Virus record (IMG/VR): IMGVR_UViG_2932987669_000001
Span: 20,545-84,544 of that record
DNA: 64,000 nucleotides
Direction: 5' to 3' (one strand)
Source: a virus
Positions 9,466-41,084 of this stretch are shown here, in pieces. A model generated the notes under the pieces. The model was not told the origin of the DNA, searched no databases, and saw only the letters and a list, made by a program, of their open reading frames with translations. Numbering within the stretch: position 1 is the stretch's first letter; every line of letters starts with the position of its first letter. The translations under genes were made by a program, and so were the position numbers.

Positions 9466-9507
9466 ATGACTCGCCCTCCCATTGGTTTCTGTAATTAGTC
9501 CCTAACC
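9466..9507 (+). promoter_or_regulatory. Bipartite late-promoter-like motif, copy 1 (before portal)
   Basis: GACTCG-N15-CTGTAATTAGTCCCTAACC; same spacing as the other four copies. Confidence 0.65.
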
Positions 9508-9525
9508 AGACATCAGGAGGAATTT

Positions 9526-11025
9526 TTGCAGCAGACCGAGTCATCCCCACAATATATCCTCACAACAACTGGAATCCCGACCCAGCCACTGGCCACGGCG
9601 GCGGCGTTAGACGCGTCCGCTTTCGCTGCGGTCACTGCCGACGATGGGATCCCTACAACGTGGGAGGACCGGGCCAAACAGGCGTGGACCTACTACCTGG
9701 AAGAGCCGATCGTCAAAAACGCGATCAACTCGTGGCGGACCTTCGCGGTCGGTGAGGAAATCAAAATCACGTCCGAGGACGACAACCTAAAGGCCGAGGC
9801 CACCGATATGGCCCGGCGGCTGAACCTTTCCAGTTGGATCAAGGACATGGTGCTTCAGATGCTGGTCAAGGGCGACGCGGTCGGGTTCAAAAAAGCCGGG
9901 CAAGGCGACGTATTGGAAGAACTAGTCTCGGTCAATCCGGTTTCGGTCAAGGTGAAGTACGTCCAAGGCCAGCTCGTCGAAGCCAAGCAGCACTCCGAAA
10001 ATCCCGGAACCGCCGACGTGCTGGACTTGCCCGTCGACCAGGTGCTGCACCTGAAATGGGACGCGCCGGGATTCAGTCCACGCGGCAATTCCATGGTGCT
10101 GCCCGCCTTCCAGAGCATCGAGCTATTGTGGGACTACCGCAAAGCCGAGCGGGCCATCGCCAAGCGCTGGGCCACGCCGTTTCGCCTGCTCAAGGTCGGC
10201 GGCTCGTTCGGGCCCAAGCTCGTCATGCCCGATCAGAAAATGCTCGAAACGGTGCGGGACATGGTGAACCGGATGGATATGAAATCCGGCCTGGTCGTTC
10301 CATTCTACGTGAATGTGGAGACGCACGGCACCGAAGGCAGCGTGCTCAACGCGGAAGAGAAGGTTCGCGAAGTCAAAGAGGACATCATGATCGCGTTGGG
10401 CCTGAGCAAGAGCCTCGTCTCAGGCGACGGGCCGAACTTCGCCACGGCTTCGGTCAGCTTGCAAAAAATGCTGATCATGATCCGCGAAATCAAGCACGCG
10501 GCGCTGCGAATGCTCCACTGGGTTTTTGACGACTGGCTACAGGCGCGGGGCCAAAAACGTGGTGCGATCCAGTTTCTGTTCAACGACCTGGACCCGAGCG
10601 ACGCGGTCGATTTCAAGCGCCTGCTGTTGGAGCTTTACGATCGAAACCTGATCAGCCGGGCAAGCCTGCAAACCAAGATGGACCTGGATCCCGACTTCGA
10701 GAAGGCCAACCAAGAAGCCGAGCAGGTGCGGGTTTCCATCGCAGACGACCGGCAGGTGGGCAACATCCTCGGCATGGTGGCCGCAGGCATCATGGGGCCC
10801 GAAACGGCGCAGGAGCTGCTCGGCCTTGATCCAGGGAAAAATCCGACGGGGATCAGCCGCGCTGAATCCGATTGGGGCGGGCTGAATGCTGCCGGGAGGC
10901 ATCACGACGAATTATGTGATGCCTGTGGTCATTTCGATGCAGACGAAAGCCGGTGCCGTGTCCACCAGAGCGACCGGACCTTTGATGAATTCGCCTGCCG
11001 CTTTTTCGAACGGTGTGTGGTCTAA
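9526..11025 (+). CDS. Portal protein with Cys/His-rich C-terminal extension
   Basis: AGGAGG RBS and TTG start; ~500 aa; position before head genes; portal-like YYxEEPIVKNAIN, PRGxSxV...A and G-L-S...G-xGPNFAT segments. Confidence 0.8.
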   Translation: MQQTESSPQYILTTTGIPTQPLATAAALDASAFAAVTADDGIPTTWEDRAKQAWTYYLEEPIVKNAINSWRTFAVGEEIKITSEDDNLKAEATDMARRLNLSSWIKDMVLQMLVKGDAVGFKKAGQGDVLEELVSVNPVSVKVKYVQGQLVEAKQHSENPGTADVLDLPVDQVLHLKWDAPGFSPRGNSMVLPAFQSIELLWDYRKAERAIAKRWATPFRLLKVGGSFGPKLVMPDQKMLETVRDMVNRMDMKSGLVVPFYVNVETHGTEGSVLNAEEKVREVKEDIMIALGLSKSLVSGDGPNFATASVSLQKMLIMIREIKHAALRMLHWVFDDWLQARGQKRGAIQFLFNDLDPSDAVDFKRLLLELYDRNLISRASLQTKMDLDPDFEKANQEAEQVRVSIADDRQVGNILGMVAAGIMGPETAQELLGLDPGKNPTGISRAESDWGGLNAAGRHHDELCDACGHFDADESRCRVHQSDRTFDEFACRFFERCVV

Positions 11026-11035
11026 GGTGGCAACC

Positions 11036-12532: not shown

Positions 12533-12552
12533 ACGATCCTTTTTTCGAAAAT

Positions 12553-12594
12553 GTGGTCCGGTTTGCCTCACGGATCTGTAGTTAGTCCTCAACC
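12553..12594 (+). promoter_or_regulatory. Bipartite late-promoter-like motif, copy 2 (before MTase-protease-scaffold)
   Basis: GGTCCG-N15-CTGTAGTTAGTCCTCAACC. Confidence 0.75.
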
Positions 12595-12628
12595 CGACAT
12601 GGGCAGCACACCAACCAGGGGACGAACT

Positions 12629-17871: not shown

Positions 17872-17900
17872 TTGACTCTTACGATTGTAGGATCTAGAAT
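17872..17900 (+). promoter_or_regulatory. Sigma70-type promoter of the PadR cargo operon
   Basis: TTGACT-N17-TAGAAT; near-palindrome TACGATTGTA in the spacer (possible operator). Confidence 0.7.
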
Positions 17901-17936: not shown

Positions 17937-18230
17937 ATGCTACCAGACTTATCAAACAAGGAACACTTAATATTGGGCCTCCTGGTTACTCACGGACAGC
18001 TATATGGCTTAGAGCTGGTCAAAAAATCTGAGGGGCAATTAAAACGGGGCACAGTTTATACAACTTTAAGCCGGATGATTGATAAAGGGTATTTGAATTT
18101 TTCTGTCGAAGAAAATGCTACTCATTCCGGTCTCCCCCGGCGAAAATATTCTCTAACAGGACATGGTCGCAAAGTGTTTGAGGAGTTCAATGTATATGCT
18201 GCAAGCTTTGTAAAGGGGTTTGCCATATGA
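17937..18230 (+). CDS. PadR family transcriptional regulator
   Basis: LYGLEL...GTVYTTLSRMIDKGYL...RRKYSLTGHG winged-helix signature; AGGAG RBS. Confidence 0.9.
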   Translation: MLPDLSNKEHLILGLLVTHGQLYGLELVKKSEGQLKRGTVYTTLSRMIDKGYLNFSVEENATHSGLPRRKYSLTGHGRKVFEEFNVYAASFVKGFAI

Positions 18231-19168
18231 AAAACTCGGTTATTATTCCAGTTTGGAAAGTAAAACTTGCAATAATCGGTTTTGGCTTGTCCTTTTTTTG
18301 CCCCCTTGTAGCGATTAGTATAGCCTTAATGATGTCTCCTGATAAAATATTCTCACAGATCGACAAAGAACAAATGCTTGAAAGCGTCAACATTGCATTT
18401 GATTCCACGAGGAATACAGAGTCTTTTGCGAATATTTCATCTGAAGCTTTAGATATAGAATTCCATGGAGTGTTAAGCCATGGGAGCAAACAAGAAAAAA
18501 TTCTAAAGTTGAAAGACGAAATGAATTGTTTTATTCAAGATGCTTTCGAGAGTGAAACCTTAAATGAAACCATATTCTCGATTCACCAGTACGGGTATGG
18601 TTCATTTGAAAAAATGTTGAACCCCATGCTTGAAAATTCACCTGCTTATAATAACGGAAGGAGGGTGAATCAAGACGCATTGGAAATATTTAGAGATAGC
18701 TCGATTGCTTTGAGTTTAATCTCAAAAAATACTTTATCCCTGCTTCAGAATAATCAGAAAAAAGCCAACTATTTGGGGATGAAATTAGTCGCCTCTCAAT
18801 ATGCTACCTATGTTTTGACTGGCCTTGGTTTTTTGGGGTTGTTACTTACCTTACCCTTCTTTTTTGTTAACATCGAGACAAAGAACGAAAAAACCTTGTT
18901 GATAAAAGCTCCCGGGTGGCGCCTTTCGCTCTTCTCTAGATTGGTTTTTGGACAAAAAGCCTACAGTGCAGAATTCTTAGAGCTTCAATCGAATTTAGAT
19001 GATGAATATTTTGAGGCGTATTCCGATGGTAGGATTAAGGAAGCAAGCTGGATTCATCTCAGATATATAGTTATATTCTGGACTCTCTTTTTGAAAAAAG
19101 TGCTCAGAGGCCCCTTCTACCTTTTCAAAGAGTTAGTGTCAATCCAAAACAAAATCGACAAACTTTAA
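18227..19168 (+). CDS. Membrane protein coupled to PadR
   Basis: ATGA overlap; TM segments near N-terminus and ~aa 190-215; C-terminal PGWRL...DDEYFEA...GRIKEASWI resembles PadR-neighbour permease-prefix domains; AT-rich. Confidence 0.7.
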   Translation: MKNSVIIPVWKVKLAIIGFGLSFFCPLVAISIALMMSPDKIFSQIDKEQMLESVNIAFDSTRNTESFANISSEALDIEFHGVLSHGSKQEKILKLKDEMNCFIQDAFESETLNETIFSIHQYGYGSFEKMLNPMLENSPAYNNGRRVNQDALEIFRDSSIALSLISKNTLSLLQNNQKKANYLGMKLVASQYATYVLTGLGFLGLLLTLPFFFVNIETKNEKTLLIKAPGWRLSLFSRLVFGQKAYSAEFLELQSNLDDEYFEAYSDGRIKEASWIHLRYIVIFWTLFLKKVLRGPFYLFKELVSIQNKIDKL

Positions 19169-19195
19169 GCTCTTTATGGCCTTCTGACAGGAGTT

Positions 19196-19702
19196 TTGAT
19201 TTATGGAAACACTATGAGTTCATCGCATGGACTATACATCTTCACCGTCTTTAATTGTTTTTCCAGGCAGGGGCAGGTCTCGACTCTGTTTGATGAAGAC
19301 TGTGTAAGAAGAAACTTACTAATTTGGAGTCTTCAAGGCCCGGCCCTACAGGAAACCATAGAGATGGGACCAAAAAATCAAACTTGTGAGCAAACCAGTC
19401 AGGTGACTTTGTGCAAAATAGCGTTGCACCTACAAGGCTTCCAGTTGTACTTTCTCACTGCCCAGTACAAAACACTGATCCGCTCAGCAATGCCACTGGC
19501 CAAACAGAGAAACGACCGGTCTACCTACAAAATCACCGGCATCGAGATCAAAGGGGCCATCCCGACGATCAAAGCGGAGCGGTTCTCCACGCTGAGATGC
19601 TACACCGACTCGGGATTCTTCATCCGGGTGCGCCTCGGTGAAAATGGCAAGTACATGATTATTGAAGAATACACGGAGACCCAGCCCCATTCCGATTGCT
19701 GA
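19196..19702 (+). CDS. Hypothetical protein (start uncertain)
   Basis: ORF only; the 3' part has more coding-like codon use. Confidence 0.35.
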   Translation: MIYGNTMSSSHGLYIFTVFNCFSRQGQVSTLFDEDCVRRNLLIWSLQGPALQETIEMGPKNQTCEQTSQVTLCKIALHLQGFQLYFLTAQYKTLIRSAMPLAKQRNDRSTYKITGIEIKGAIPTIKAERFSTLRCYTDSGFFIRVRLGENGKYMIIEEYTETQPHSDC

Positions 19703-19841
19703 GTTACAGAAAGAGAAATAAGGCGATTTCCGTGAGAATCTACTAGTTGTTATCGGTGGAAAATATCGTCGCAAAAAAATGGGGCACTTTTAGTCTCGGG
19801 GAAAGGGAGCGAGCTTGCCATTTGAAATGGGGAGGGGCAAG

Positions 19842-22800
19842 ATGGATTTAGCGTGGAAGGATAAAGGATATCTACTACTTCAGTTTAAAATGCGGTGTTA
19901 TAAGCAAAATGCTATTGAATTTCAAAGTTTTTTTGAAGAGGTAATGGAGGAGGTATATGATGACTTTCGGAAGATAAGGCCTCATGGAAACCTTGGAGAT
20001 GGTGGGAATGATGGATATCGACCTAGCGTAGGCGAATACTATCAGGTTTACTCTCCTCGTCAGCCACAGTTTAAAGACACCGATGCTGCCAAAAAGTTTA
20101 AAGACAATTTTAAAACTCTGAAAGCAACCTGGGGTGAATTTGACAATGTAAAAACGTATTATCTTGTATTTAACGATAAATATCATGGGTCTTCACTTCC
20201 CCTGGAAAAGGCACGCATAGAACTAAAAAGAGAAAATCCAGATGTTTTATTTGATATAGTTCTTGCTAGAGATTTTGAAAGGCTGTTTTTAAAGTTAGGT
20301 CAAGAGTCTTTGCTTCGACTTGATTTTGATATTGACAGTAGAAGAGCAGTGGAGATCGTTACAAATATTTTTGATCAGGTCAAAGATTTATTGAAAAAAG
20401 GGCAAGGTGAAAGCGCCTATGGCTTGTTGCAAGCAAATGAAATTGGGTTACATATACTGAATGATGATCATTTGTTGCATCAGCAAAGGGTTCTGGAATG
20501 TAGGTGTTTAATTTCCTTAGAACGAATCCCAGAAGTAAAAGAAAAATGCCAGCACCTACTGCTTGGAAAACCAGAAGATATAGATTTCCTTTGCATCCTC
20601 ATGGATCTAAGTTTGAGCTGCCGAGACTTTGCTGGATTTGAAGAAAAATTAAACCAAGCCAAACATATCGACCAGGGCAGCATAAGAGCTTATTGCCTCG
20701 AGCTTGAGTGTATTATGTTGTCTAATGGTGAGGTGACGGATGAAAACCTGAACTACTTGTACAAAAGAGCCGATTACTCACCGCCGTTTGTAAGTGTGAC
20801 ATTATCCTATGCTTGTGATTATTTGGGAAGGTTTGAAGAGGCAGATAAATGGATGAGGTTTGTAGAAAACAATGACCAAGACGATCTGGCTGCTCACTTG
20901 GGGGCGTTGTGTATTTTGCATTCTAGGGGGAATCGAGCCCAGGATCCTCAGAAGAGAGCAGAGATTAATAAAGAGCTACAGGAAAAATCTAAACTTGTTT
21001 ATGATCACTTTAGTCAATTTGGCCCTCTCTCTCCGAGGGACAGGGTTCTTTTGCAATACTTATCAATTCAGAATGACTTAGAGACAAGGGACTATGAGCA
21101 AATTATTAATAAGTCTTCTCATGCGATTTCACTCGTTATGAAATGCTATTTTGATTACCAGATAGCAATTATTCTGACTAAAAATTTGCAAGTAGCTGAG
21201 TTGTCAAAAAAGATACTAAGCGAGCTATTGGCTTTTCTTGAGGCATCTTCGTTTTCTCCGCCATTGTTTCTGCAAAAACAATTGTTATTACTGTTTTTGT
21301 CTTCGAATATTTCCATGAGCGAAATCAAAGAATACTTCATAAATACTCAGCAAAGGCAGTTACTATCTCTCCTGGAGAATATTGAGGAGAAACGCTTTGA
21401 GGGGGCCCTGGAAGAGCTCCGAAACGATTTAGATTTCGCTTACCATCTGGCGCTGGGCGTTAAACGGTTTCCTGAGTTTCGTAGATATTTGTATTCAAAA
21501 CTTCCTGACTTGCCTGATCATCCAAAGGGTGCTATTTCCCTCATTTTGTCTGTGGACGAGGGTTGTTATGAAGAGACGTTAAAGTTTCTGCAAAATATCT
21601 GTTTAGATACCCTGAGCTACTACCATAAAAACTATTTGCTCAAGGCTGTGAGAGACAAGAAGGCGTGGGATATTGAGATTTTCTTACTGGAGAAACTTCT
21701 AGGGGAAGAATGGGACTCTGAAAAGCTATGGTCAATTAAATACAGGTTAATCTATCTGTATTATTCATCGCAACAATACCTTAAAGTCATCCTCTTAGGA
21801 GAAGAGCTTCTTCTGGCTTGTCTAGAGGAAAACGTTCTTACCAAAGAGGAGGTTAGGCGTGTGCTTTGGGCAACTCTTCAATCATGCCTGTGCCAAGGGA
21901 AAGTGGAGTCTCGTTTTTTTGACAGAGCCCTAGATCTGCTCGAGCGCTTTTCTGGCTATGACTCAAGTTTTGATTTTCTCTTGAACACCAAAGCTATTGC
22001 AGAAATAAAAAGTAATAACCCAAAAGCAGCAACTGAAACCATACTCAAGGCGATAAAGGAAAAAGGCCTCCTCTCCCTTGAGGATTGTAATAGCGTATTC
22101 CAGGTAGTCGTATTTGAATTAGGAGAATCTGAGTGTCTTTCAAATAGCTCGCTTGAAGTGGTTACTCCTGACTCGTTTGTAAAATTTAAAGACAGTGACA
22201 AGTGGTATGTGATGAGCGAATCTTCTCTGCTTGAAGCTGTTCCGGTCCCTAAGAAATCTTCAAGGTACAAGGTTTACTTAGGACAAAGACCCAATGTTCC
22301 ATTCATATTTTCGAGAAAGTTCTCCTCTGAAACACTAGAAATAGAACGGATTTTTTGCTTTAAGAACTATGCGTTTTGGTATGTTTTCCAAAAGATTGGT
22401 CATGCAATAAATCAAGATTTGATTCCAGGGGTTGTCTCAATTCCTGTTAAAAAAGATAGCAAAGGATTTGACTTTGGGAATCTAATTTCCGTACTGAAAG
22501 AAGAAAGGAATCATGGTGCAGAGTATTTTCACCAATATTGTAACAACAATTGGCCTTTTGCTGCATTAGCAACACATGAAGGAGGAATCCTTTCTGCAGT
22601 TCAGAGAATAGCGAGCGAAGGAAGAGGTAGCATACGTTTTAGAGCAGGCGGTATTCAAGAGTATCAAAATCAACTTTGCACAGCGAGAAAGTTAATTGAG
22701 GAAAAGCGCTCCTTTTTCCTTGATGGAACATCGGCATTTTTTCTGGTGATTTCAGGTCTATTGGATAAGGTGTGCGATTCTTTCCCTGGTATGAGAGTTC

Positions 22801-23687
22801 CGCAATCCGTTGTCAATTTATTAGCTCAAATTGTCGATCGATACGAGGATAGAGCCAATTCTAGAGGTTTTCTTGGTCTTCGAAATGATCAGCTTTTGTT
22901 GACAGTTATTAGCTCCGAAGATAGAAGAGCTAACAAGGATCAGATCACTAAGGCTATCCAGAAAATCCAGAGCACTCACGAGAGGGTCGTTTTCATTTCC
23001 GATGCTAATAGGTCGGATTTTTTTTCAGAAAAAGAAATACTTCCAGAGTTTGCAGATGCAACAATTTTGGCCCAAAAAGAAGGATGCTGCATTCTAACCG
23101 ATGATTTTTATTACCTTCACCTTAATCACATGGAAACAGGCAAACCCATTCCCGATTACACCTCTTCTCTTGGGCTTATTACCGAAATGCTCACTGCAGG
23201 TTTAATATCCTTTGAACAGTATCTTGATTTTTTTCAGTTATTGTCTCGATTTCGTTTTGCCCCTCTACCTCTTGGTGAATCAGAAATTAAAAGGGCAATA
23301 TTTGGAATGAGACGAATTGTCGAGTTAAATTTTGACAATATTAGTAAATTGAACCTACCTTATATTTTATCCTCTGCGAATGGAGCCATTAGAAAGAAGG
23401 TGGGAGTTCTTTTTGCTGATTTTTTTCGAGAGCTTCTCTTTGATCATTCGATTTCTTCGGGAATTATTGGCAAATTATTTGCTGAAATCCTAAAAAATCT
23501 TCCAGAGGAAATGGATTCCACTCAAATTGGACAAGAAATTCTCGCCTATTGTGTAATTGCAAGCCAGAAAGGGAAATCTGCAGTACTGTACTGGCCCAGT
23601 GATCAAGTGGTTGAACAAAAATTATTTTCGCTTTTTGAAGTTTTAACATTGTGTGATTTTAGAAGAAAGGCTGGATATTCGATATAG
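19842..23687 (+). CDS. Large AT-rich protein: N-terminal PD-(D/E)xK-like nuclease, TPR-like helical region, C-terminal PIN domain (probable defence protein)
   Basis: N-term FQSFFEEVM...IRPHGNLGDGGNDGY...YYQVYSP; long helical repeats; PIN-like FFLDGTS...VPQSVV...DATILA...ILTDDF; ATG 19842 with GGAGGG RBS. Confidence 0.7.
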   Translation: MDLAWKDKGYLLLQFKMRCYKQNAIEFQSFFEEVMEEVYDDFRKIRPHGNLGDGGNDGYRPSVGEYYQVYSPRQPQFKDTDAAKKFKDNFKTLKATWGEFDNVKTYYLVFNDKYHGSSLPLEKARIELKRENPDVLFDIVLARDFERLFLKLGQESLLRLDFDIDSRRAVEIVTNIFDQVKDLLKKGQGESAYGLLQANEIGLHILNDDHLLHQQRVLECRCLISLERIPEVKEKCQHLLLGKPEDIDFLCILMDLSLSCRDFAGFEEKLNQAKHIDQGSIRAYCLELECIMLSNGEVTDENLNYLYKRADYSPPFVSVTLSYACDYLGRFEEADKWMRFVENNDQDDLAAHLGALCILHSRGNRAQDPQKRAEINKELQEKSKLVYDHFSQFGPLSPRDRVLLQYLSIQNDLETRDYEQIINKSSHAISLVMKCYFDYQIAIILTKNLQVAELSKKILSELLAFLEASSFSPPLFLQKQLLLLFLSSNISMSEIKEYFINTQQRQLLSLLENIEEKRFEGALEELRNDLDFAYHLALGVKRFPEFRRYLYSKLPDLPDHPKGAISLILSVDEGCYEETLKFLQNICLDTLSYYHKNYLLKAVRDKKAWDIEIFLLEKLLGEEWDSEKLWSIKYRLIYLYYSSQQYLKVILLGEELLLACLEENVLTKEEVRRVLWATLQSCLCQGKVESRFFDRALDLLERFSGYDSSFDFLLNTKAIAEIKSNNPKAATETILKAIKEKGLLSLEDCNSVFQVVVFELGESECLSNSSLEVVTPDSFVKFKDSDKWYVMSESSLLEAVPVPKKSSRYKVYLGQRPNVPFIFSRKFSSETLEIERIFCFKNYAFWYVFQKIGHAINQDLIPGVVSIPVKKDSKGFDFGNLISVLKEERNHGAEYFHQYCNNNWPFAALATHEGGILSAVQRIASEGRGSIRFRAGGIQEYQNQLCTARKLIEEKRSFFLDGTSAFFLVISGLLDKVCDSFPGMRVPQSVVNLLAQIVDRYEDRANSRGFLGLRNDQLLLTVISSEDRRANKDQITKAIQKIQSTHERVVFISDANRSDFFSEKEILPEFADATILAQKEGCCILTDDFYYLHLNHMETGKPIPDYTSSLGLITEMLTAGLISFEQYLDFFQLLSRFRFAPLPLGESEIKRAIFGMRRIVELNFDNISKLNLPYILSSANGAIRKKVGVLFADFFRELLFDHSISSGIIGKLFAEILKNLPEEMDSTQIGQEILAYCVIASQKGKSAVLYWPSDQVVEQKLFSLFEVLTLCDFRRKAGYSI

Positions 23688-23910: not shown

Positions 23911-23952
23911 TCGACCCGTTTTCCTTCGGCTTTCTGTAGTTAGTCCTCAACC
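23911..23952 (+). promoter_or_regulatory. Bipartite late-promoter-like motif, copy 3 (before tail operon)
   Basis: GACCCG-N15-CTGTAGTTAGTCCTCAACC. Confidence 0.75.
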
Positions 23953-23972
23953 CACCGAGGTTGGAGGACGCC

Positions 23973-24539: not shown

Positions 24540-24766
24540 TAGCCATCAAAAACCTGTTGTTTCAACCGCTTGCGATCCCGCTGACTGGAGGTCAGAGCCT
24601 TCATCTTCAACCAAGAGAGACACAGGAAGTTCCCGATAACCAGATCTCACATGATCTCCTGGCAGCCGAAAAGCGTGGCCTGATCCACATGGAAACCAAG
24701 GCCGGAACCCAGTCTGCCAATTCGAAACCCAAACCCACCAGAAGAAAAAGGAAGCCCCGCGCATGA
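24536..24766 (+). CDS. Small hypothetical tail-region protein
   Basis: Overlapping start/stop with both neighbours; basic C-terminus. Confidence 0.65.
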   Translation: MIAIKNLLFQPLAIPLTGGQSLHLQPRETQEVPDNQISHDLLAAEKRGLIHMETKAGTQSANSKPKPTRRKRKPRA

Positions 24767-26628
24767 CGACCTATCTTTCGCCCGGCATTTACACGAAGGA
24801 AACGGATTTTTCCTTCTACGTCAAACAGATCTCCACATCCAGCGCGGCCATGGTCGGTGTCGCCGAACGCGTGCCCATCAATTCTCCCTCACTGGTAACG
24901 AGCTGGGAGCAGTTCGCCAACCGCTACGGCGGCTACATCCAGGCCGGATACCTTGCCTACGCGGCCAGGGCCTTTTTCGATAATGGCGGAAGAACCTTGT
25001 ACGTCAACCGCGTGGCGCACCTAACCGATCCCATGGATCGACAATCGCTCACCGCGGTCTCGGCATCCCACACGCTGCTGGACCGGCGCGGTGTGACCGC
25101 CTCGCTCGAAACCGGCCAGGCCGGGACCGACCGCATCACCTGGCAAGCCCGGGAAGCCGGTACTTCGGGCAACGTCCTTTCGGTGGTGCTTGACGCAAGC
25201 GGGATCGACACACCGCTTTCCGTCGAAGTCGCCGGCAACGTGATTCGTGTCCACTTGGCAACCGATTCGGCAGGGACCGCCACCAGCACGGCCAATGAGA
25301 TTGTGGCGGCCATCGATACGGACAGCGAGGCCTCGGCTCTGGTCACCCTTCGATCCGAGGACACGGGTTTTGTCACGCCTGTGACAGAAACCCCGCTGGC
25401 CGGCGGAACAAACGGCCAAGCCACCTTGGAAGTTACCGCCATCAATGAAGGGACATGGGGTAATGACCTGACCGTCTACACTGTAGACAGCACGCGACAG
25501 CCTACGGACCGATTCAACCTCATCGTCCGCTATCAGAACCGCATCGTCGAAGTTCACCGCGACCTGAGCATGGACGAATCCTCCCGCGACCATGTCGAAG
25601 CGGTTGTGAACGAGGCTTCGGAGTTCATCCGGGTCCGGGATCTGGGCAATGGATCCGGCTATCCCGACGACCGGCCCGGTATCGGTGAATTCGTACTGTC
25701 CGGTGGTGATGACGGCCTGGCCGGTCTGAATGACCAAGACTTCATCGGTGATGCGGCAGCCCACTCCGGCATTCGCGCCTTTGACGAAATCGATGCGCTC
25801 AATCTGGTGGCGGTGCCCGGCGTGACCACGGCGCCCGTCATTCAAGCCGGCATCACCTACGCCGAGAACCGCAAAGACCTGTTGTTCATCGCCGACGCAC
25901 CGCTGCACCTGGAACCTCTGGAAGTGATCCAGTGGCGGAAAGGTCAAGGCGGCTACACGCACACAGCGTTCAATTCGACCTATGGGGCCGTCTACTATCC
26001 CTGGCTGCAAATCAGCGATCCGCTGACCAGCAAAAAGAAGTTGATTCCTCCGAGCGGCGCGGTTTGCGGCTGCATTGCCCGCAGCGATCAGAAAACCAAT
26101 GTCTGGTCGGCGCCCGCTGGCACGGAGCGCGGTCGGATTTTCAACGTGCTGAATGTCGGCTATCGCGTTTCGCGCGGCGACATGGACGCACTTTACCCGG
26201 AAGGGATCAATTCGATTGTGGCCAACCCGGACACGGGCGTCGTGATTTGGGGCCAAAGGACCTTGACTCTCCAACCTTCGGCCCTGGATCGGATCAATGT
26301 GCGTCGCCTCATGATGTACATGGAAGAGGCCATCGGCGAGAGTTCGCGGTTTGTCATCTTCGAACCGAATCATCCGCAGACCTGGCGGGCTTTGCTTCGC
26401 CTGTTAAATCCGTTTCTTTTGGACATCCAACAGAACGGCGGCCTGTATGAGTTTCGCGTCCAGTGCGACGAGGAGACCAACACGCCGGCCGTCATTGACC
26501 GGAACGAGATGCGAGCCCGCGTCTTCGTCAAGCCCACCAAAACCGCTGAATTCGTGGAGTTGAATTTCGTGTTGATCACAACCGGCGCCAGCTTCGACGA
26601 AATCTTCGCTGAGACCAACAGGAGGTAA
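24763..26628 (+). CDS. Contractile tail sheath protein
   Basis: YLSPGIY..E N-terminus, YYPW, PPSG...G..AR, WGQRTL, INVRRL, FEPN, KPTKTAEFV. Confidence 0.95.
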   Translation: MTTYLSPGIYTKETDFSFYVKQISTSSAAMVGVAERVPINSPSLVTSWEQFANRYGGYIQAGYLAYAARAFFDNGGRTLYVNRVAHLTDPMDRQSLTAVSASHTLLDRRGVTASLETGQAGTDRITWQAREAGTSGNVLSVVLDASGIDTPLSVEVAGNVIRVHLATDSAGTATSTANEIVAAIDTDSEASALVTLRSEDTGFVTPVTETPLAGGTNGQATLEVTAINEGTWGNDLTVYTVDSTRQPTDRFNLIVRYQNRIVEVHRDLSMDESSRDHVEAVVNEASEFIRVRDLGNGSGYPDDRPGIGEFVLSGGDDGLAGLNDQDFIGDAAAHSGIRAFDEIDALNLVAVPGVTTAPVIQAGITYAENRKDLLFIADAPLHLEPLEVIQWRKGQGGYTHTAFNSTYGAVYYPWLQISDPLTSKKKLIPPSGAVCGCIARSDQKTNVWSAPAGTERGRIFNVLNVGYRVSRGDMDALYPEGINSIVANPDTGVVIWGQRTLTLQPSALDRINVRRLMMYMEEAIGESSRFVIFEPNHPQTWRALLRLLNPFLLDIQQNGGLYEFRVQCDEETNTPAVIDRNEMRARVFVKPTKTAEFVELNFVLITTGASFDEIFAETNRR

Positions 26629-33106: not shown

Positions 33107-34609
33107 TCATTTCTTCAAAAGCTTCTCAAGGCGGTTCAGTGCAACCCCCTCCCGATCTAAATACGAAATAGGCAGTAATTGCAACCTCAATTTCGCCCCT
33201 GGTCGTTTCCAGTTGACCGCCAGGCCATTCTTAGAGTTTTTTCGCTTGAGTTCGTATCCAATTCCAAGATTTAAAGAAAACAAATTGAAATAACTCCGTG
33301 GCCCAACTCCAATAAAAGGCTCGAACAATACTTTATTAAGGGTGTTTTCGACGGAGATTGAATCTTTGTGAAAATCCAAGGCTTTGCTTTTGGGATAAGG
33401 TTCTATAAAAACGACGCGGCGAACTCCGGAGGAAATGATGTGTTTTGCACAATTATGACACGGGAAAGTAGTGCAGAAAATTTCTGCATCCTGAGTGCTA
33501 ATTCCCATCCGGCTGCAGGTTAGTAATGCTTCCATTTCGGCATGAACAACTCGGCCATATTCAGTTATATCCATAACGGAACTTTGCTTTAGTGCTTTTT
33601 TTATCTTTTTTCGCGATTTTTTAGGAGCATCATTGACGATTTTATCAATAATCTTTCTCTTCTCTGTGGTATTTGTGTCATACCCAAGGCGGTAGTCTCT
33701 ACCGCCTTCAGAGTCGCAAAAAATTCGCTCTTGCTCGTTGTAAGATGGCCAATAGAGACCTCCATCAGCCTTTGGCACATCATTTGCTCCTGTTGCTATT
33801 ATGTTCGTTCCTTTGGTTAGAACTGCCCCCACCTGCCTCGACAAGTCGGCTGAGCGTAATGCCGAAGAAAAGGCCAAAAACATGGAGTACTCATCAAATG
33901 TTGGTGTCACAAATGGATTTCCAAAAATCAGATCGAGTATCCGGGATATTTGTGCCTCTAAATAATTTAAATTGGAGTTAAAAGAAATAAAAAAATCTGA
34001 GAGATGAAATGCAGCTCTAACCTGTTGACCATGTTTTTTTGACTCAGCTTCGTCGCGACGGATCAATTTTTCAGCCTGGTCTTCATGCATCCCTTTGCGA
34101 ATCAGGCGTTGAATACGGTCTGTTTCGCAAGAATATACCCCAAAAATAAATACGCCAGGGTGGTAAATATTTCTAAGTCGCTCTATTTCATAATGGTGTT
34201 TGAGAGAGTTTATTATTGTCGCAGTTCGTTTTTTGGGAGTGACTCCGTTGTCATCTTCCGAGGATTCTCGAGTATCGTAGATTCGTGCCGCTGCAGCTAG
34301 TGCTAAAATCGAGTTGTCGCCAGATTTTTCTCTTAATTTATTCCCTTCATTCATTAACGCATTGGCTCGCTCGAAGGCCCCATCTGGAATCTTTGCGTCA
34401 GTCAAAGTCTCTATAATTTGATTTGAGACTTTGATCGTCTCAACTTGATACTGAAACACTTTCAAAAAACCTTTTATTAAATCACAGACTAAATCCAGAG
34501 GAGTACCAATCGCGCCAACGAGCCCAATTATCAACTCAGAATCAGAATACTGAGGTTCTTTCTTTGATTTTTTTGATGTACTTCTACCGCCATTTTGGTT
34601 TTTGCTCAT
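33107..34609 (-). CDS. Anti-phage dCTP deaminase (AvcD/Dcd-type: P-loop kinase-like domain + deoxycytidylate deaminase)
   Basis: IIGLVGAIGT N-terminus, TPTFDEY.MF.A...ALRSADLSRQVGA, zinc-site HAE and PCHNC; AT-rich and opposite to the phage genes. Confidence 0.92.
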   Translation of the reverse strand: MSKNQNGGRSTSKKSKKEPQYSDSELIIGLVGAIGTPLDLVCDLIKGFLKVFQYQVETIKVSNQIIETLTDAKIPDGAFERANALMNEGNKLREKSGDNSILALAAAARIYDTRESSEDDNGVTPKKRTATIINSLKHHYEIERLRNIYHPGVFIFGVYSCETDRIQRLIRKGMHEDQAEKLIRRDEAESKKHGQQVRAAFHLSDFFISFNSNLNYLEAQISRILDLIFGNPFVTPTFDEYSMFLAFSSALRSADLSRQVGAVLTKGTNIIATGANDVPKADGGLYWPSYNEQERIFCDSEGGRDYRLGYDTNTTEKRKIIDKIVNDAPKKSRKKIKKALKQSSVMDITEYGRVVHAEMEALLTCSRMGISTQDAEIFCTTFPCHNCAKHIISSGVRRVVFIEPYPKSKALDFHKDSISVENTLNKVLFEPFIGVGPRSYFNLFSLNLGIGYELKRKNSKNGLAVNWKRPGAKLRLQLLPISYLDREGVALNRLEKLLKK

Positions 34610-34667: not shown

Positions 34668-34697
34668 AGAATACACGTTACTTTGCCCAAATGTCAA
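34668..34697 (-). promoter_or_regulatory. Sigma70-type promoter of the dCTP deaminase
   Basis: Minus strand TTGACA-N18-TATTCT, ~60 nt upstream of ATG 34609. Confidence 0.65.
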
Positions 34698-34850: not shown

Positions 34851-34892
34851 GTGAGCCGAAAACCATTTTCTTCCTGTAGTTAGTCCCCAACA
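34851..34892 (+). promoter_or_regulatory. Bipartite late-promoter-like motif, copy 4 (before baseplate hub)
   Basis: GAGCCG-N15-CTGTAGTTAGTCCCCAACA. Confidence 0.72.
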
Positions 34893-34918
34893 CGCCATTT
34901 CGGCCAGAGTTGGGGACC

Positions 34919-36202
34919 ATGACCATCGATCCGTTCAAACCGACCTTCCTCATCCAAATCGAGGGCGAGACCCTTGCCGAGGACATTACCCAGGAGATCA
35001 CGTCTTTTACCTTCGAGGACAACGAGAAGGGACTGGACGTACTCACCCTGACGGTGACGAATCGGAACCATCAGTTCGTCGACCACCCGTTATTCCAGGA
35101 AGGCAACGAGATCGTGGCCCGCTGGGGCTACGTCGACAACCTGTCACCGCGCAAAAAGGCGGTGATCAAGGATGTCGATTATGAGTTCCCCGAAAACGGC
35201 GATCCGCGAATCCGCCTGAAAGCCTTCGACAAAGGGTTCAAGCTTTCTGGCAAAGAGAACCAGAAGGTGTGGCAAAAGCCCGCGCCGGGGATCTTGTATT
35301 CGGAGATCGCGGAGCACATTGCGAGGGCCAATGGCTTATCACCGGTTATCGAGCCGACCCTGACGCCGCACCTTCGCGTGGTGCAAAGCAACCAGTCTGA
35401 CGCCCACTTCCTTCAAGAGCTGGCCAAAAAGGCCAGGGCCCAAGATGGTGATGGTGCGGCCGGCTATGTCTTCTTCATTCAAGATGACACGCTCCACTTC
35501 CACCCGCGCCGACTGGAGCAGGCTCCCGCCATGGTTCTGGAGTACTTCACCAGCCGCCAGGGCTTGCTCCGATCCGTCCGGGTGGATGCTCGATCCCAGG
35601 GCGCAAAGGGTGCGGGCACCGAGACCACTACGATCGGGCTCGATCCCAGGAAGAAAGAACCGGTCGTTTACAAGGCCAATAACGACACCACGCCGGAACG
35701 CACATCCCTCGGCAAGCGAACCTATCTCGTCGACGCCAACACCGGCGAGGGCGGGTTCAAAGAGCAGGAGACCGGACACGTGGTGCCGACCTTCGAATCT
35801 GCCGAAGCGCTTCATGAAAAACCGACCCACGAGCCTTCCCAGGACGCGGCCGAGAGCCAGTTCAAGGAAACCGAACTTCGCCAAGTCGAGGCCACGGCCC
35901 AAACCATTGGGATTCCGCAACTGACCGCCAAGGCCAATGTCGAACTTCGTGGCCTCGGCCAAAAGCTGAGCGGAATCTATTACGTGACCTCGATCCGCCA
36001 CCAAATCGGAGAAAGCGGGTACACCTGCGACCTCCGACTTCGCAGGAATGCGCTGGGCGCCGGTGCCGGGGACAAGTCTGAAAAATCCAAGGGTATCCCC
36101 AACGAGCAGGCCGGCCCGGCAACGCCCCAGGAGAAACCGCCAGCCATGGTGACGGTGGACGCGGACACCGGCGACATCATCGAGGATCCGAGGGAGGGGT
36201 GA
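34919..36202 (+). CDS. Baseplate hub, late control D / VgrG gp27-like
   Basis: DNEKGLDVLTLT, F..G..I...WGY, SEIAE.IA...GL, QSNQSDAHFL..LA, G.YYVTSIRH. Start may be TTG 34910. Confidence 0.85.
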   Translation: MTIDPFKPTFLIQIEGETLAEDITQEITSFTFEDNEKGLDVLTLTVTNRNHQFVDHPLFQEGNEIVARWGYVDNLSPRKKAVIKDVDYEFPENGDPRIRLKAFDKGFKLSGKENQKVWQKPAPGILYSEIAEHIARANGLSPVIEPTLTPHLRVVQSNQSDAHFLQELAKKARAQDGDGAAGYVFFIQDDTLHFHPRRLEQAPAMVLEYFTSRQGLLRSVRVDARSQGAKGAGTETTTIGLDPRKKEPVVYKANNDTTPERTSLGKRTYLVDANTGEGGFKEQETGHVVPTFESAEALHEKPTHEPSQDAAESQFKETELRQVEATAQTIGIPQLTAKANVELRGLGQKLSGIYYVTSIRHQIGESGYTCDLRLRRNALGAGAGDKSEKSKGIPNEQAGPATPQEKPPAMVTVDADTGDIIEDPREG

Positions 36203-37007: not shown

Positions 37008-37056
37008 CCCACTCAGCGCGGTCTTTCGGGGCCGCGCCATTTTCGAGGTTTCTTGA

Positions 37057-38040: not shown

Positions 38041-38051
38041 GAAGGCTATCG

Positions 38052-39431: not shown

Positions 39432-39443
39432 GGGAGATGCTAA

Positions 39444-39770: not shown

Positions 39771-39771
39771 G

Positions 39772-40572
39772 ATGGGATCTGCCACGTTTTCACCCGGCTC
39801 GGGCGCAATCTACGACATAACCACGACCTCACCCGTGGCCCATGTGCTACACCTGAGCCACGCGGCCTCAGAAGCCATGCGCCAGGAAGCCGAATCTGCC
39901 CTCGAAGCCCACCAGCAGGCGGCGGCCGAGTACAGCCAGCAACTGGACCAACCGGACTTTCACCCGTTCGTGTCATTGCCCGCAGGCACCCTGCAGCGTG
40001 ATTTGTCGAACGGCCAGCGGCTCTTCGTCCTGCCGGACGGCACCTTTTTGGGAACGACCGACCAGGAACACTTCGTGTTCGTGGACTCCGCCGGCGTTCC
40101 GTACCAGATACCGGAGCACGACGGCAAGGTCACCCTTCCCGATAGCCGCGTCTTCGAATTGGTCCCCGAAGCGCGGGCAACGCATGCGACAGATTGGATC
40201 CAAGGCCTGCCGGCAGGTGTTCATCCGGTCCAAGTTGCCGACGGGCGGTTCCGTATCGTTTTCGCTACGGGTCTTCGGCTGGATGTCTCCATCCCGGATC
40301 GTCGGGTTGTCCTTCTCAATCCGACGGCAACCGTGATCGAGTTGGGTAAGAAGATCCAGGCCATTGGCGAGGAAATCCAAGTCAACCTGGTGGACAACGG
40401 CGGGCGTGGGTTCTCGGCCCTGGAATCCCAGCATCGTGGATTCATCGATCAGTCCGGCGACATCCTGTTGAGCTTGGTCAGCGGCGAAGACTTAGCGATC
40501 ACCTTCCCGACACAAGACCAAAACGGAGAGGAGAATCCTCATCGCTACTACCAATGTGGGGGCCCGGTATGA
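39772..40572 (+). CDS. Hypothetical baseplate-region protein
   Basis: ATG 1 nt after the previous stop; phage-like codon use; LPDG repeats. Confidence 0.6.
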   Translation: MGSATFSPGSGAIYDITTTSPVAHVLHLSHAASEAMRQEAESALEAHQQAAAEYSQQLDQPDFHPFVSLPAGTLQRDLSNGQRLFVLPDGTFLGTTDQEHFVFVDSAGVPYQIPEHDGKVTLPDSRVFELVPEARATHATDWIQGLPAGVHPVQVADGRFRIVFATGLRLDVSIPDRRVVLLNPTATVIELGKKIQAIGEEIQVNLVDNGGRGFSALESQHRGFIDQSGDILLSLVSGEDLAITFPTQDQNGEENPHRYYQCGGPV

Positions 40573-41003
40573 CGTCGTTCGATTTCCTCGGCAAGGGCAT
40601 CAAGTTCCCATTCCGTTTCGATCGGAAAACCGGTGGCGTGGCCACATCGGAGGTCACCTCTCAAGACCATGCCCGCATCCGTGAGAGCATCGTCCAGATC
40701 CTGGGCACCCGAGTTGGCGAACGGTTCATGCGGCCCGACTTCGGCTCGCGTTTGCACGAGCTGGTTTTTGAGCCCAATGATTCGGTGCTCAAGGGTTTGA
40801 TCCGCCACTATGTAATAGATGCAATTCGAAAGTGGGAAAAGCGTGTGGTGATCACCGAAGTGACGTTTGAAGACGGACCCGAACAGGTGGACGCCAATGT
40901 CTTACAAGTACGCATCCACTATCGGCTGATCCAGTCCCCCGTGACGGGGAACTTGGTTTTTCCGTTCCATCGTGAAGGTCGAACCGAACAGCCGAACGGC
41001 TAA
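40569..41003 (+). CDS. Baseplate wedge GPW/gp25 family
   Basis: LGKGIKFPF, IRESIVQILGTRVGERFMRPDFGSRL..L.FEPND, WEKRV. Confidence 0.95.
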   Translation: MTSFDFLGKGIKFPFRFDRKTGGVATSEVTSQDHARIRESIVQILGTRVGERFMRPDFGSRLHELVFEPNDSVLKGLIRHYVIDAIRKWEKRVVITEVTFEDGPEQVDANVLQVRIHYRLIQSPVTGNLVFPFHREGRTEQPNG

Positions 41004-41042
41004 TGAAGGCCTCCCAGCCAGACGTGACCTTTTCAAATTTTT

Positions 41043-41084
41043 GTGGCCCGGCTTCCCTCCCAAATCTGTAGTTAGTCCCCAACC
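41043..41084 (+). promoter_or_regulatory. Bipartite late-promoter-like motif, copy 5 (before baseplate J)
   Basis: GGCCCG-N15-CTGTAGTTAGTCCCCAACC. Confidence 0.75.

What the first reader, a model, noticed from the sequence alone, without database searches (positions are those of the whole stretch)
9466..41084. Five copies of a fixed-spacing bipartite motif mark the structural operons: candidate new late promoter
Seen: CTGTARTTAGTCCYYAAC starts at 9489, 12576, 23934, 34874 and 41066. All five have GRNYCG ending exactly 15 nt upstream, plus a conserved C six nt after it. Each is intergenic, on the + strand, 17-45 nt before portal, MTase-protease, tail, hub or baseplate J genes. Cargo genes instead use TTGACx-N17/18-TAxxxT promoters. 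Known: phages switch on late genes through dedicated sigma factors or activators. Inference: this is the element's late promoter; its reader is not in the window.
Basis: partly seen in the sequence, partly recalled or inferred. Interest (0 to 1): 0.8.

Follow-up and report, generated by a model that had tools for sequence, protein, structure and literature searches.

The report
Promoters for a prophage's own sigma factor
The five repeated motifs are real. They are most likely promoters read by a sigma factor that this prophage encodes just outside the window, and they head nearly all phage gene modules, not only the late ones. This is a known kind of phage regulation in an undescribed, widespread prophage family.

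Summary
Five exact copies of CTGTARTTAGTCCYYAAC lie on the + strand, each with GRNYCG ending 15 nt upstream and a C at spacer position 6.

- **Extent:** The window holds only part of the set. A weight-matrix scan of the whole 11.8-Mb genome finds 12 sites (44-56 bits; next best 19.7). All lie within 59 kb of one myovirus prophage.
- **Not late-specific:** The seven extra sites lie upstream of the window. They precede the integrase operon, a sigma-factor gene, the replication module (three in tandem), an unknown minus-strand gene and the packaging genes.
- **Candidate reader:** It is a 192-aa divergent ECF-type sigma factor about 13.4 kb upstream of the window. Support comes from a TIGR02937 match, a PHROG sigma match, Sigma70_r2 hits in 35 of 42 homologues, and a predicted fold whose top PDB matches are ECF sigmas.
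- **Relatives:** Related prophages keep the same sigma gene in the same place. They carry their own bipartite boxes at orthologous positions, and the box sequence changes as the sigma diverges.

No transcript data could be found, so transcription starts are untested. The kind is known (phiEco32 gp36, phage 7-11 gp47, PBSX Xpf). The consensus and the family appear undescribed in the literature searched. An earlier report of this scan (e1-4690173) described what reads like the same system on other DNA.

The parts
9467..9506 (+). Site before portal. Upstream box TGACTCG (9467-9473), 15-nt spacer, downstream box CTGTAATTAGTCCCTAAC (9489-9506).
   Evidence: PWM score 47.6 bits. Portal ORF 9526-11025. 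The site follows divergent minus-strand LRR/Roc-COR cargo at 5949-9118.
12554..12593 (+). Site before the Dam-methylase fusion gene. TGGTCCG-N15-CTGTAGTTAGTCCTCAAC.
   Evidence: PWM score 51.4 bits. MethyltransfD12 protein. An orthologous box lies before the MTase gene of the relative at L162:3029.
23912..23951 (+). Site before the tail module. CGACCCG-N15-CTGTAGTTAGTCCTCAAC. It lies directly after the low-GC cargo block.
   Evidence: PWM score 52.8 bits. Sheath 24763-26628, tube and T4_baseplate genes follow. Orthologous boxes lie about 850 nt before the sheath gene in relatives.
23959..23969 (+). Shine-Dalgarno-containing segment GGTTGGAGGAC, which can pair with the 3' half of the 23934 box.
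   Evidence: stem of 10 pairs with one bulge, -21.2 kcal/mol, z -1.6..
34852..34891 (+). Site before the hub or tail-protein gene. TGAGCCG-N15-CTGTAGTTAGTCCCCAAC. It lies directly after the antisense deaminase cargo.
   Evidence: PWM score 49.8 bits. PHROG 52 tail protein. Orthologous box in the relative at L161:8193.
34909..34917 (+). GTTGGGGAC, a perfect 9-bp complement of the 3' half of the 34874 box. It covers the ribosome-binding site of the ATG at 34919.
   Evidence: -20 kcal/mol, z -2.6, 2 of 200 shuffles as good; 0 of 300 shuffles reach 9 bp.
41044..41083 (+). Site before baseplate J. TGGCCCG-N15-CTGTAGTTAGTCCCCAAC.
   Evidence: PWM score 52.7 bits. Baseplate_J ORF 41126-42529. Orthologous box in the relative at L161:14622.
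17937..23687 (+). Low-GC (about 40%) cargo block including a TPR-GreAB-C-PIN protein. It is inserted just upstream of the tail-module site. It is not part of the sigma regulon and has a sigma70-like promoter at 17872.
   Evidence: The block is absent at the same place in the cargo-free relative (L162:9386-9447).
33107..34609 (-). Antisense deaminase cargo gene with a sigma70-like promoter at 34697. It is inserted just upstream of the hub site.

Best explanation
The motif is the core promoter used by a sigma factor that the prophage itself encodes.

**Reader.** The sigma is 192 aa, ECF/group-IV type, with sigma-2 and sigma-4 domains joined by a disordered linker. Its gene is at genome 5619642-5620220 (L010:5642-6220), about 13.4 kb upstream of the window.

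**Mechanism (inferred).** The sigma would bind host core RNA polymerase. Sigma-4 would read the upstream box (TGAYCCG, extended to about TGAnnCGnTTnnC). Sigma-2 would read the start of the downstream box ((T)CTGTAG).

**Scope.** Twelve such promoters head essentially every phage module:
- the DUF2924/serine-recombinase operon
- the sigma gene itself (positive autoregulation)
- recombination and replication (three tandem copies)
- an unknown minus-strand gene
- packaging
- portal and head
- the MTase fusion and major head protein
- tail
- hub
- baseplate

They are therefore the phage's general lytic promoters, not a late class.

**Transcription start and leader (inferred, weaker).** Transcription probably starts in or just after the 3' half of the box (...TTAGTCCYCAAC). 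The C-rich GUCCYC would then lie at the mRNA 5' end. There it tends to pair with the purine-rich ribosome-binding region downstream.

**Cargo.** Cargo genes sit just upstream of three sites because operon boundaries tolerate insertions. They use host-type promoters.

**What is shown and what is inferred.** Shown: the sites, their confinement to the prophage, their geometry, the sigma-like protein, and conservation of both in relatives. Inferred: that this sigma reads these sites, the start site, and the role of the hairpin.
For: 1. **Specificity.** A PWM built from the sites and scanned over both strands of the 11.79-Mb genome gives 12 sites at 44-56 bits (leave-one-out 31-50). The next best position scores 19.7. 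All 12 lie in genome 5615737-5674911.
2. **Geometry.** Two boxes have an invariant 15-nt spacer, and 11 of 12 sites have C at spacer position 6. All sites are intergenic and co-oriented with the next gene, including one minus-strand site before a minus-strand gene. TGACCC-N16-CTGTA matches the layout of ECF promoters such as B. subtilis SigW, TGAAAC-N16-CGTA (own knowledge).
3. **Reader.** L010:5642-6220 matches TIGR02937 sigma70-ECF at E 1.6e-9 over profile positions 16-162 of 165. It matches PHROG 1740 'RNA polymerase sigma factor' at E 2.8e-8. Of 42 homologues, 35 hit Sigma70_r2. The AF2 model (pLDDT 87) shows two helical domains and a disordered linker. The top Foldseek PDB hits are all sigma factors, with ECF sigmas SigL, SigH, RpoE and AlgU first.
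4. **Autoregulatory layout.** One site lies 326 nt upstream of the sigma start, and three lie directly downstream of the gene.
5. **Distant relatives.** Prophages with 61-68% identical sheath proteins carry CGAC-N16-CGGTAAGTA. In five records searched there are 6-8 copies each, all on the gene strand, with 0 in reversed-pattern controls. All five records give an ECF-model match, over the family cut-off in four. A representative of these sigmas is 28% identical to ours and lies in the same synteny, followed by a site and then the PD-(D/E)XK nuclease gene.
6. **Closer relatives.** A 65-kb contig whose sigma is 41% identical has CTGTAWTTAGYCC or CGGTAWTTAG boxes at orthologous places. These are before integrase, sigma, replication, portal, MTase, tail, hub and baseplate J. 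It has no cargo. A contig whose sigma is 37% identical has TGACCCG-N15-CGGTAGTCAGTAC.
7. **Recognition helix.** The sigma-4 recognition helix is similar within our subgroup (ST.(K/T)RYK) and different in the CGGTAAGTA group (TTLYDRLSK), in step with the different upstream boxes.
8. **Precedent.** Phage 7-11 gp47 reads bipartite GTAAtg-N16-aCTA promoters (PMC8948821). PBSX Xpf is a group IV sigma (PMC10141391).
Against: - There is no transcript evidence. No RNA run was listed for this DNA, so no start site is mapped and sigma dependence is untested.
- The sigma scores below curated cut-offs on its own: TIGR02937 37.6 vs 42.9 bits, and Sigma70_r4_2 19.6 vs 25.7.
- The boxes lack the usual ECF hallmarks (AAC in the -35, CGT in the -10).
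- The downstream box is conserved over 18 nt, far more than a -10 element needs. Something else may also read it.
- In the closest relative the upstream box is weak (about TGRYC) while the downstream box is strong.
- No anti-sigma factor or repressor was identified, so how the lysogen keeps an autoregulated sigma silent is unexplained.
- If the GUCC of the box is really in the RNA, the distance from CTGTAG to the start would be short for a sigma-type -10 element.
Confidence: 0.75

Rival explanations
1. The boxes are binding sites for another phage DNA-binding protein rather than for the sigma. One form is an activator working with a host sigma, as with P2 Ogr or Mu C at late promoters. Another is an immunity repressor bound at many co-oriented intergenic 'stoperator' sites, as in mycobacteriophage L5 and other cluster A phages.
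For: The sites are asymmetric, co-oriented with transcription, intergenic and confined to the phage. This also describes stoperators (own knowledge). The 18-nt conservation of the downstream box is longer than a -10 element needs. Several small ORFs of unknown function lie near the integrase and sigma genes.
Against: The invariant 15-nt spacing of two boxes fits -35/-10 geometry. Only 19-45 nt separate the box from the start codon at the window's sites, which leaves no room for a separate promoter downstream. No sigma70-like -10 (TANNNT with T at position 6) lies inside the box. A sigma gene is conserved in synteny in all relatives, and the box sequences diverge along with it. No repressor or activator family was detected.
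Confidence: 0.12
2. The element works mainly at the RNA level. The conserved downstream box would be a 5'-leader module, either a processing site or an anti-Shine-Dalgarno hairpin that gates translation of each operon's first gene. Transcription would come from elsewhere.
For: In about 8 of 12 sites GUCCYC pairs with a downstream GRGGAC that often covers the ribosome-binding site. Summed pairing exceeds all 300 shuffles, 63 against a mean of 52 and a maximum of 61. The 34874 site has a perfect 9-bp stem (z -2.6). Comparable stems occur in the relative, for example at L154:7558.
Against: Swapping downstream regions between sites gives about the same total pairing (mean 60.6, P 0.27). The pairing is therefore generic C-rich with purine-rich complementarity, not site-specific covariation. 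Four to five sites form no such stem. An RNA-only element does not explain the upstream box at fixed spacing. Sites that follow divergent or antisense genes (9489, 34874) need a promoter of their own.
Confidence: 0.05
3. The box is the promoter of an unrecognised phage-encoded RNA polymerase. This could be single-subunit or non-canonical, with the roughly 20-nt contiguous conservation typical of T7-like promoters.
For: The downstream box plus the T-rich end of the spacer gives about 20 conserved contiguous nt. Several large phage proteins have no family assignment: window:107-1672 (521 aa), L010:18908-19903 (331 aa), and the C-terminal 700 aa of the 1124-aa primase.
Against: No RNA-polymerase family was detected in any module. 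The separate upstream box at fixed distance is a sigma feature. In the CGGTAAGTA group the upstream CCGACA box is as conserved as the downstream one. A sigma gene is conserved throughout the family.
Confidence: 0.04
4. The motif is a recombination or insertion signal that marks module boundaries, and cargo cassettes are captured next to it.
For: Three of the five window copies lie immediately downstream of foreign low-GC or antisense cargo.
Against: The cargo-free relative has the boxes at the same orthologous places. The boxes therefore predate the cargo. Most of the 12 sites have no cargo beside them. No recombinase is associated with the cargo blocks.
Confidence: 0.03

Closest known systems
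Salmonella phage 7-11 sigma factor gp47 and its eight late promoters GTAAtg-N16-aCTA; E. coli phage phiEco32 gp36 with tAATGTAtA (PMC8948821)
   Same: A phage-encoded, highly divergent sigma70-family protein with sigma-2 and, in 7-11, sigma-4. It redirects host core polymerase to a handful of near-identical phage promoters. In 7-11 these are bipartite with fixed spacing. Related phages keep the promoter positions while the consensus changes with sigma divergence.
   Different: Those are virulent podoviruses whose early genes use host sigma70, and the phage sigma serves middle or late genes only. Here the phage is a temperate myovirus with a serine integrase. The sites also precede integrase, sigma and replication genes. 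The consensus is unrelated. Homology between our sigma and gp47 or gp36 was not tested.
Bacillus subtilis PBSX Xpf (positive control factor, a group IV sigma with sigma-2 and sigma-4; PMC10141391 citing McDonnell et al. 1994)
   Same: A prophage-encoded group IV sigma factor in a contractile-tail element, needed to switch on the element's morphogenesis genes after induction.
   Different: As far as I know, Xpf drives a single late operon promoter and is itself controlled by the Xre repressor (own knowledge). Here 12 dispersed promoters cover all modules, including the sigma gene itself, and no repressor was identified.
Cellular autoregulated ECF sigma factors and their promoters (E. coli sigma-E GGAACTT-N16-TCAAA; B. 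subtilis sigma-W TGAAAC-N16-CGTA; own knowledge)
   Same: Two-domain sigma, a bipartite promoter with about 16-nt spacing, and a copy of the promoter upstream of the sigma gene.
   Different: No adjacent anti-sigma gene was recognised. The boxes lack the AAC and CGT hallmarks. The regulon is a virus genome rather than a stress response. The downstream box is conserved over 18 nt.
Stoperators of cluster A mycobacteriophages (L5 gp71 repressor sites; own knowledge)
   Same: Many asymmetric, co-oriented intergenic sites spread through a temperate phage genome.
   Different: Stoperators are single 13-14-bp boxes that block elongation. Here there are two boxes in promoter geometry, always at operon heads, together with a conserved sigma gene.

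Membership tests
ECF / group IV sigma70-family sigma factor (the candidate reader, L010:5642-6220) | Sigma-2 domain (Sigma70_r2) | tested here: met
   The TIGR02937 alignment spans profile positions 16-162 of 165, E 1.6e-9. Of 42 homologues, 35 hit PF04542. The DLEQEL..L motif is conserved. The protein alone is below the curated cut-off (37.6 vs 42.9 bits).
ECF / group IV sigma70-family sigma factor (the candidate reader, L010:5642-6220) | Sigma-4 helix-turn-helix domain, with no sigma-1.1 or sigma-3 | tested here: met
   Sigma70_r4_2 E 7e-4 to 1e-3 and Sigma70_ECF E 4.5e-3. The 192-aa AF2 model has two helical domains joined by a disordered 40-aa linker. Top Foldseek hits are ECF sigmas SigL, SigH, RpoE and AlgU.
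ECF / group IV sigma70-family sigma factor (the candidate reader, L010:5642-6220) | Binds core RNA polymerase and directs initiation | not testable with these tools
   Needs in vitro transcription or pull-down.
ECF / group IV sigma70-family sigma factor (the candidate reader, L010:5642-6220) | Co-encoded anti-sigma factor | tested here: inconclusive
   Neighbouring small ORFs (L010:4157-4567, 4861-5268, 5329-5469, 6469-6849) gave no anti-sigma family hit. One hit a PHROG annotated 'recombinase'. Absence of a hit does not show absence.
ECF-type bipartite promoter | Two conserved boxes at fixed spacing of about 16-17 nt, upstream of and co-oriented with the target genes | tested here: met
   TGAYCCG-N15-CTGTAGTTAG in 12 of 12 sites with no length variation.
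ECF-type bipartite promoter | Copy upstream of the sigma gene (autoregulation) | tested here: met
   The site at L010:5316 lies 326 nt before the sigma start at 5642. The same holds in the relative, L154:6522 before the sigma gene at 7008.
ECF-type bipartite promoter | Typical AAC in the -35 and CGT in the -10 | tested here: not met
   The consensus is TGAYCCG and CTGTAG. The geometry is ECF-like but the sequence is not.
ECF-type bipartite promoter | Transcription start about 6-9 nt downstream of the -10 box | not testable with these tools
   No RNA runs were listed.
Phage late promoter (temporal class restricted to morphogenesis and lysis genes) | Found only before late or structural genes | tested here: not met
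   Seven of 12 sites precede the integrase operon, the sigma gene, the PD-(D/E)XK / AAA_24 / DUF669 / ERCC4 / RecD2 / primase module, an unknown gene and the packaging genes.
Stoperator-type repressor sites (cluster A mycobacteriophages) | Single asymmetric 13-14-bp box bound by the immunity repressor | tested here: not met
   The element is bipartite with a conserved upstream box at fixed distance. No repressor family was found.

The most novel reading that the evidence does not exclude
A large family of temperate contractile-tail phages is found as prophages in Desulfobacterota, Gammaproteobacteria, Holophagae, Hydrogenedentota, Phycisphaerae, Verrucomicrobiota and others. In this reading the family runs its whole programme from one private, self-activating ECF sigma factor and 6-12 cognate promoters. 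That programme covers integration or excision, replication and morphogenesis. The sigma circuit, rather than a CI-type repressor acting on host-type promoters, would be the lysis-lysogeny switch. Such host-independent promoter specificity would help explain why the family crosses phylum boundaries.
Probability: 0.3. Interest if true: 0.7.

Novelty: new member of a known kind. Interest (0 to 1): 0.5.

Why it matters
**Annotation.** The result gives a concrete, testable map of this prophage's transcription units: 12 promoters and one candidate sigma. It also corrects the 'late' label.

**A compact orthogonal pair.** If confirmed, it defines a promoter and sigma pair with no off-target sites in an 11.8-Mb genome. 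Naturally diverged variants exist in relatives (TGACCCG-N15-CTGTAGTTAG, TGACCCG-N15-CGGTAGTCAG, CCGACA-N15-CGGTAAGTAA). Together these form a ready series for studying how sigma factors and promoters co-evolve, and for building orthogonal expression parts.

**Phage biology.** The system raises the question of how a temperate phage keeps a self-activating sigma silent in the lysogen. It may also bear on whether carrying its own promoter specificity helps a phage family spread across very different hosts.

**Cargo.** Defence-type cargo (a PIN-TPR system, a deaminase, a Roc-COR protein) is inserted at operon boundaries just upstream of these promoters and uses host-type promoters. This fits lysogen-expressed morons.

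Tried and rejected
- **Nucleotide search of GenBank phages.** A distant-mode search with the sheath-tube region gave no match. A protein search gave only matches of 29% identity or less to T4-like and other myoviruses, so there is no characterised close relative.
- **Word-index homologue search with the sigma.** It found only the protein itself. The viral-contig scan with the sigma found nothing. The exhaustive HMMER search was needed.
- **Exact box in 400 genomes of the same phylum.** Only single chance hits were found, at the same level as the reversed-pattern control. No close relative of this prophage lies in those genomes.
- **Our box in about 1 Mb of related viral loci.** No bipartite copies were found. 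De novo k-mer counting then revealed the relatives' own box.
- **RNA-seq evidence.** No RNA run was listed in either of two searches. The only holder was a coral-reef metagenome with an 11% word share.
- **Site-specific covariation of the hairpins.** It is not supported. Pairing beats shuffles but not swapped partners. The 'hairpins hide the RBS' idea is kept only as a weak secondary feature.
- **Repressor or anti-sigma near the sigma gene.** None was recognisable.
- **First pattern for the relatives' sites.** It used the wrong spacing and found nothing. It was corrected.
- **Logan and ENA records.** The genome search could not reach them. The 65-kb relative was instead walked with five encoding-contig look-ups.
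- **Complex prediction.** It was not used, because no protein-protein claim is made.


Full report
**1. The observation.**

The pattern CTGTARTTAGTCCYYAAC was searched with up to three mismatches allowed. It occurs exactly five times in the window, at 9489, 12576, 23934, 34874 and 41066. All five are exact and on the + strand, against 0.10 expected. In fixed register each copy has GRNYCG ending 15 nt upstream and a C at spacer position 6. The copies are intergenic. They lie 19-45 nt before the likely starts of five genes:
- portal
- a Dam-methylase fusion protein
- the first gene of the tail module (sheath, tube and tape measure follow)
- a hub or tail protein
- baseplate J

**2. The window shows only part of the set.**

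The window is positions 5633846-5697845 of a single-contig genome of 11.79 Mb and 60% GC. Searching the whole genome found seven more copies of the same bipartite element, all just upstream of the window:

| Genome position | Strand |
|---|---|
| 5615737 | + |
| 5619316 | + |
| 5620240 | + |
| 5620335 | + |
| 5620450 | + |
| 5631080 | - |
| 5632476 | + |

A weight matrix built from the 12 sites was scanned over both strands of the genome. The 12 sites score 44-56 bits (31-50 leaving each out in turn). The next best position anywhere scores 19.7 bits. The element is therefore private to a 59-kb stretch of one prophage. The consensus is TGAYCCG-N15-CTGTAGTTAGTCCYCAAC, with a T-rich spacer start and C at spacer position 6 in 11 of 12 sites.

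**3. What the extra sites precede.**

The upstream region (L010 = genome 5614001-5634000) encodes, in order:
- DUF2924 plus a large serine recombinase
- a small sigma-like protein
- a PD-(D/E)XK nuclease, AAA_24, DUF669, ERCC4, a RecD2-type helicase and a primase
- an unknown minus-strand gene
- unknown genes leading into the terminase at window 1858-3384

The seven extra sites precede five of these units:
- the recombinase operon
- the sigma-like gene
- the replication module (three tandem copies)
- the minus-strand gene (this site is itself on the minus strand)
- the packaging genes

The element therefore heads essentially all modules. It is not a late-specific signal.

**4. The candidate reader.**

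L010:5642-6220 encodes a 192-aa protein. The evidence that it is a sigma factor is as follows:
- It matches the TIGR02937 sigma70-ECF model across both domains, at E 1.6e-9. The score is 37.6 bits, just under the 42.9-bit cut-off.
- It matches PHROG 1740 'RNA polymerase sigma factor' at E 2.8e-8.
- An exhaustive HMMER search found 780 relatives. Of 42 aligned, 35 hit Pfam Sigma70_r2.
- An AlphaFold model (pLDDT 87) shows two helical domains joined by a disordered linker.
- Its top 50 PDB matches are practically all sigma factors, led by the ECF sigmas SigL, SigH, RpoE and AlgU. Global TM-scores are low (about 0.3), as expected for two domains on a flexible linker.

One site lies 326 nt upstream of this gene, and three lie directly behind it. 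This is the usual autoregulated ECF layout.

**5. Comparative evidence.**

*Distant relatives.* Prophages and viral contigs whose sheath protein is 61-68% identical to ours are common. They occur in very different phyla. Isolate genomes among them include Desulfosarcina, Desulfobulbus, Desulfofustis and Ectothiorhodospira. There are also many metagenome-assembled genomes of other phyla, for which binning errors cannot be excluded.
- None carries our box.
- Most carry their own, CCGACA-N15-CGGTAAGTAA.
- Five records searched have 6-8 copies each, all on the gene strand, with zero in reversed-pattern controls.
- One copy lies about 850 nt before the sheath gene, where ours lies.
- All five records give an ECF-model match, over the family cut-off in four.
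- A representative of these sigmas is 28% identical to ours.
- That gene lies directly upstream of a site and the PD-(D/E)XK nuclease gene, as in our prophage.

*Closer relatives.* Closer sigma relatives give intermediate boxes.
- A 65-kb metagenomic contig has a sigma 41% identical to ours. It was walked in full.
  - It has CTGTAWTTAGYCC or CGGTAWTTAG boxes before integrase, sigma, the replication module, portal, MTase, tail, hub and baseplate J. These are the orthologous places.
  - Its GC content is 47%.
  - It has no cargo.
- Another contig has a sigma 37% identical to ours. It has TGACCCG-N15-CGGTAGTCAGTAC, again with extra box-like copies behind the sigma gene.
- The sigma-4 recognition helix is similar within this subgroup and different in the CGGTAAGTA group.

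Site positions are conserved, while box sequence diverges in step with the sigma. This is what a cognate sigma and promoter pair predicts.

**6. Mechanism, and what remains inferred.**

TGACCC-N16-CTGTA has the geometry of ECF promoters. For comparison, from my own knowledge, sigma-W reads TGAAAC-N16-CGTA and sigma-E or AlgU reads GAACTT-N16/17-TCTGA. I infer that sigma-4 reads the upstream box and sigma-2 reads (T)CTGTAG. I also infer that transcription starts in or just after TTAGTCC.

No RNA data could be found. Start sites and sigma dependence are therefore untested.

The 18-nt conservation of the downstream box is more than a -10 element needs. Its C-rich 3' half (GUCCYC) pairs with a downstream GRGGAC, often the ribosome-binding site, in about 8 of 12 sites. 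Total pairing exceeds all 300 shuffles. It does not exceed swapped site and partner combinations (P 0.27). It is therefore a generic anti-Shine-Dalgarno-like tendency rather than proven covariation. Only the 34874 stem (9 bp, z -2.6) is individually significant. I treat a 5'-leader role as a secondary, weaker reading.

**7. Cargo.**

Three window sites directly follow foreign blocks:
- minus-strand LRR/Roc-COR genes at 5949-9118
- a 40%-GC block with a TPR-GreAB-C-PIN protein, ending at 23687
- an antisense deaminase at 33107-34609

The cargo-free relative has the sites at the same places. The sites are therefore ancestral, and the cargo was inserted at operon boundaries. Only three TTGACN-N16-18-TANNNT matches exist in the window. 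Two of them precede cargo genes.

**8. Rivals.**

| Rival | Estimated probability |
|---|---|
| Another DNA-binding protein (activator, or stoperator-type repressor) | about 0.12 |
| A mainly RNA-level element | 0.05 |
| An unrecognised phage RNA polymerase | 0.04 |
| A recombination signal | 0.03 |

All of these explain the fixed two-box geometry and the conserved, co-diverging sigma gene less well than the sigma reading does.

**9. Comparison with what is known.**

Phage-encoded sigma factors with private promoters are established:
- Phage 7-11 gp47 reads eight bipartite GTAAtg-N16-aCTA late promoters. phiEco32 gp36 reads tAATGTAtA. Related phages keep the promoter positions while the consensus changes (PMC8948821).
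- PBSX Xpf is a prophage-encoded group IV sigma (PMC10141391).

This is therefore a new member of a known kind. The differences are:
- a temperate myovirus with a serine integrase
- sites before integration, regulatory and replication genes as well as structural ones
- a new consensus
- a large, cross-phylum family that I could not find described in four literature searches

An earlier report of this scan (e1-4690173) reached what reads like the same conclusion for a phage on other DNA. I reached the reading independently before seeing that note. I did not check that it concerns the same family.

**10. Verdict.**

- Confidence that these are promoters of the prophage's own ECF-type sigma is about 0.75.
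- Interest is 0.5.

Noticed in passing
L113-L144 (genome-contig loci), L025-L099 (viral-contig loci): Prophages with 61-68% identical sheath proteins and nearly superimposable gene layout occur in genomes labelled Desulfobacterota, Gammaproteobacteria (Ectothiorhodospira), Holophagae, Hydrogenedentota, Phycisphaerae, Verrucomicrobiota, Nitrospira and Thermoleophilia. This is an unusually wide host spread for one phage family. Several are isolate genomes. Many are MAGs, where binning errors are possible.
   Followed up: partly
L010:5611-5644 (genome 5619611-5619644): A terminator-like hairpin (10 pairs) followed by a T-run ends on the TTG start codon of the sigma gene. It lies between the upstream site and small ORF and the sigma coding region. 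It could attenuate sigma expression in the lysogen.
   Followed up: no
L010:5316-5469: The site upstream of the sigma gene deviates in its 3' half (GTGCATGAAC). It contains an ATG at 5329 that opens a 46-codon ORF. If transcription starts within the box, this would be a leaderless or near-leaderless small ORF.
   Followed up: no
L010:6240, 6335, 6450 (genome 5620240-5620467): Three tandem sites within 230 nt lie between the sigma gene and the replication module. The distant relative L156 also shows extra box-like copies at this place.
   Followed up: partly
L010:16962-17035 (minus strand): A 24-codon upstream ORF follows the minus-strand site. Its TGA overlaps the ATG of the 276-aa unknown gene (ATGA), which suggests translational coupling.
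   Followed up: no
window 17872-17900 (+) and 34668-34697 (-): The only intergenic sigma70-like TTGACN-N16-18-TANNNT matches in the window sit in front of low-GC cargo: the block starting at 17937, and the antisense deaminase at 33107-34609. This fits lysogen-expressed morons.
   Followed up: partly
window 19815-23687; 5949-9118 (-); 4938-5855: Cargo includes a 1290-aa protein with the PIN domain of the TPR-GreAB-C-PIN system, LRR plus Roc-COR GTPase genes, and an amidoligase. These are probably defence or accessory genes carried by the prophage.
   Followed up: no
G401-G405 (e.g. G404:C1:40760-40876): Relatives encode a second small ORF (93-97 aa) that matches only the sigma-4 part of the ECF model (E about 1e-3). 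It may be another small helix-turn-helix regulator in the family. No counterpart was sought in this prophage.
   Followed up: no
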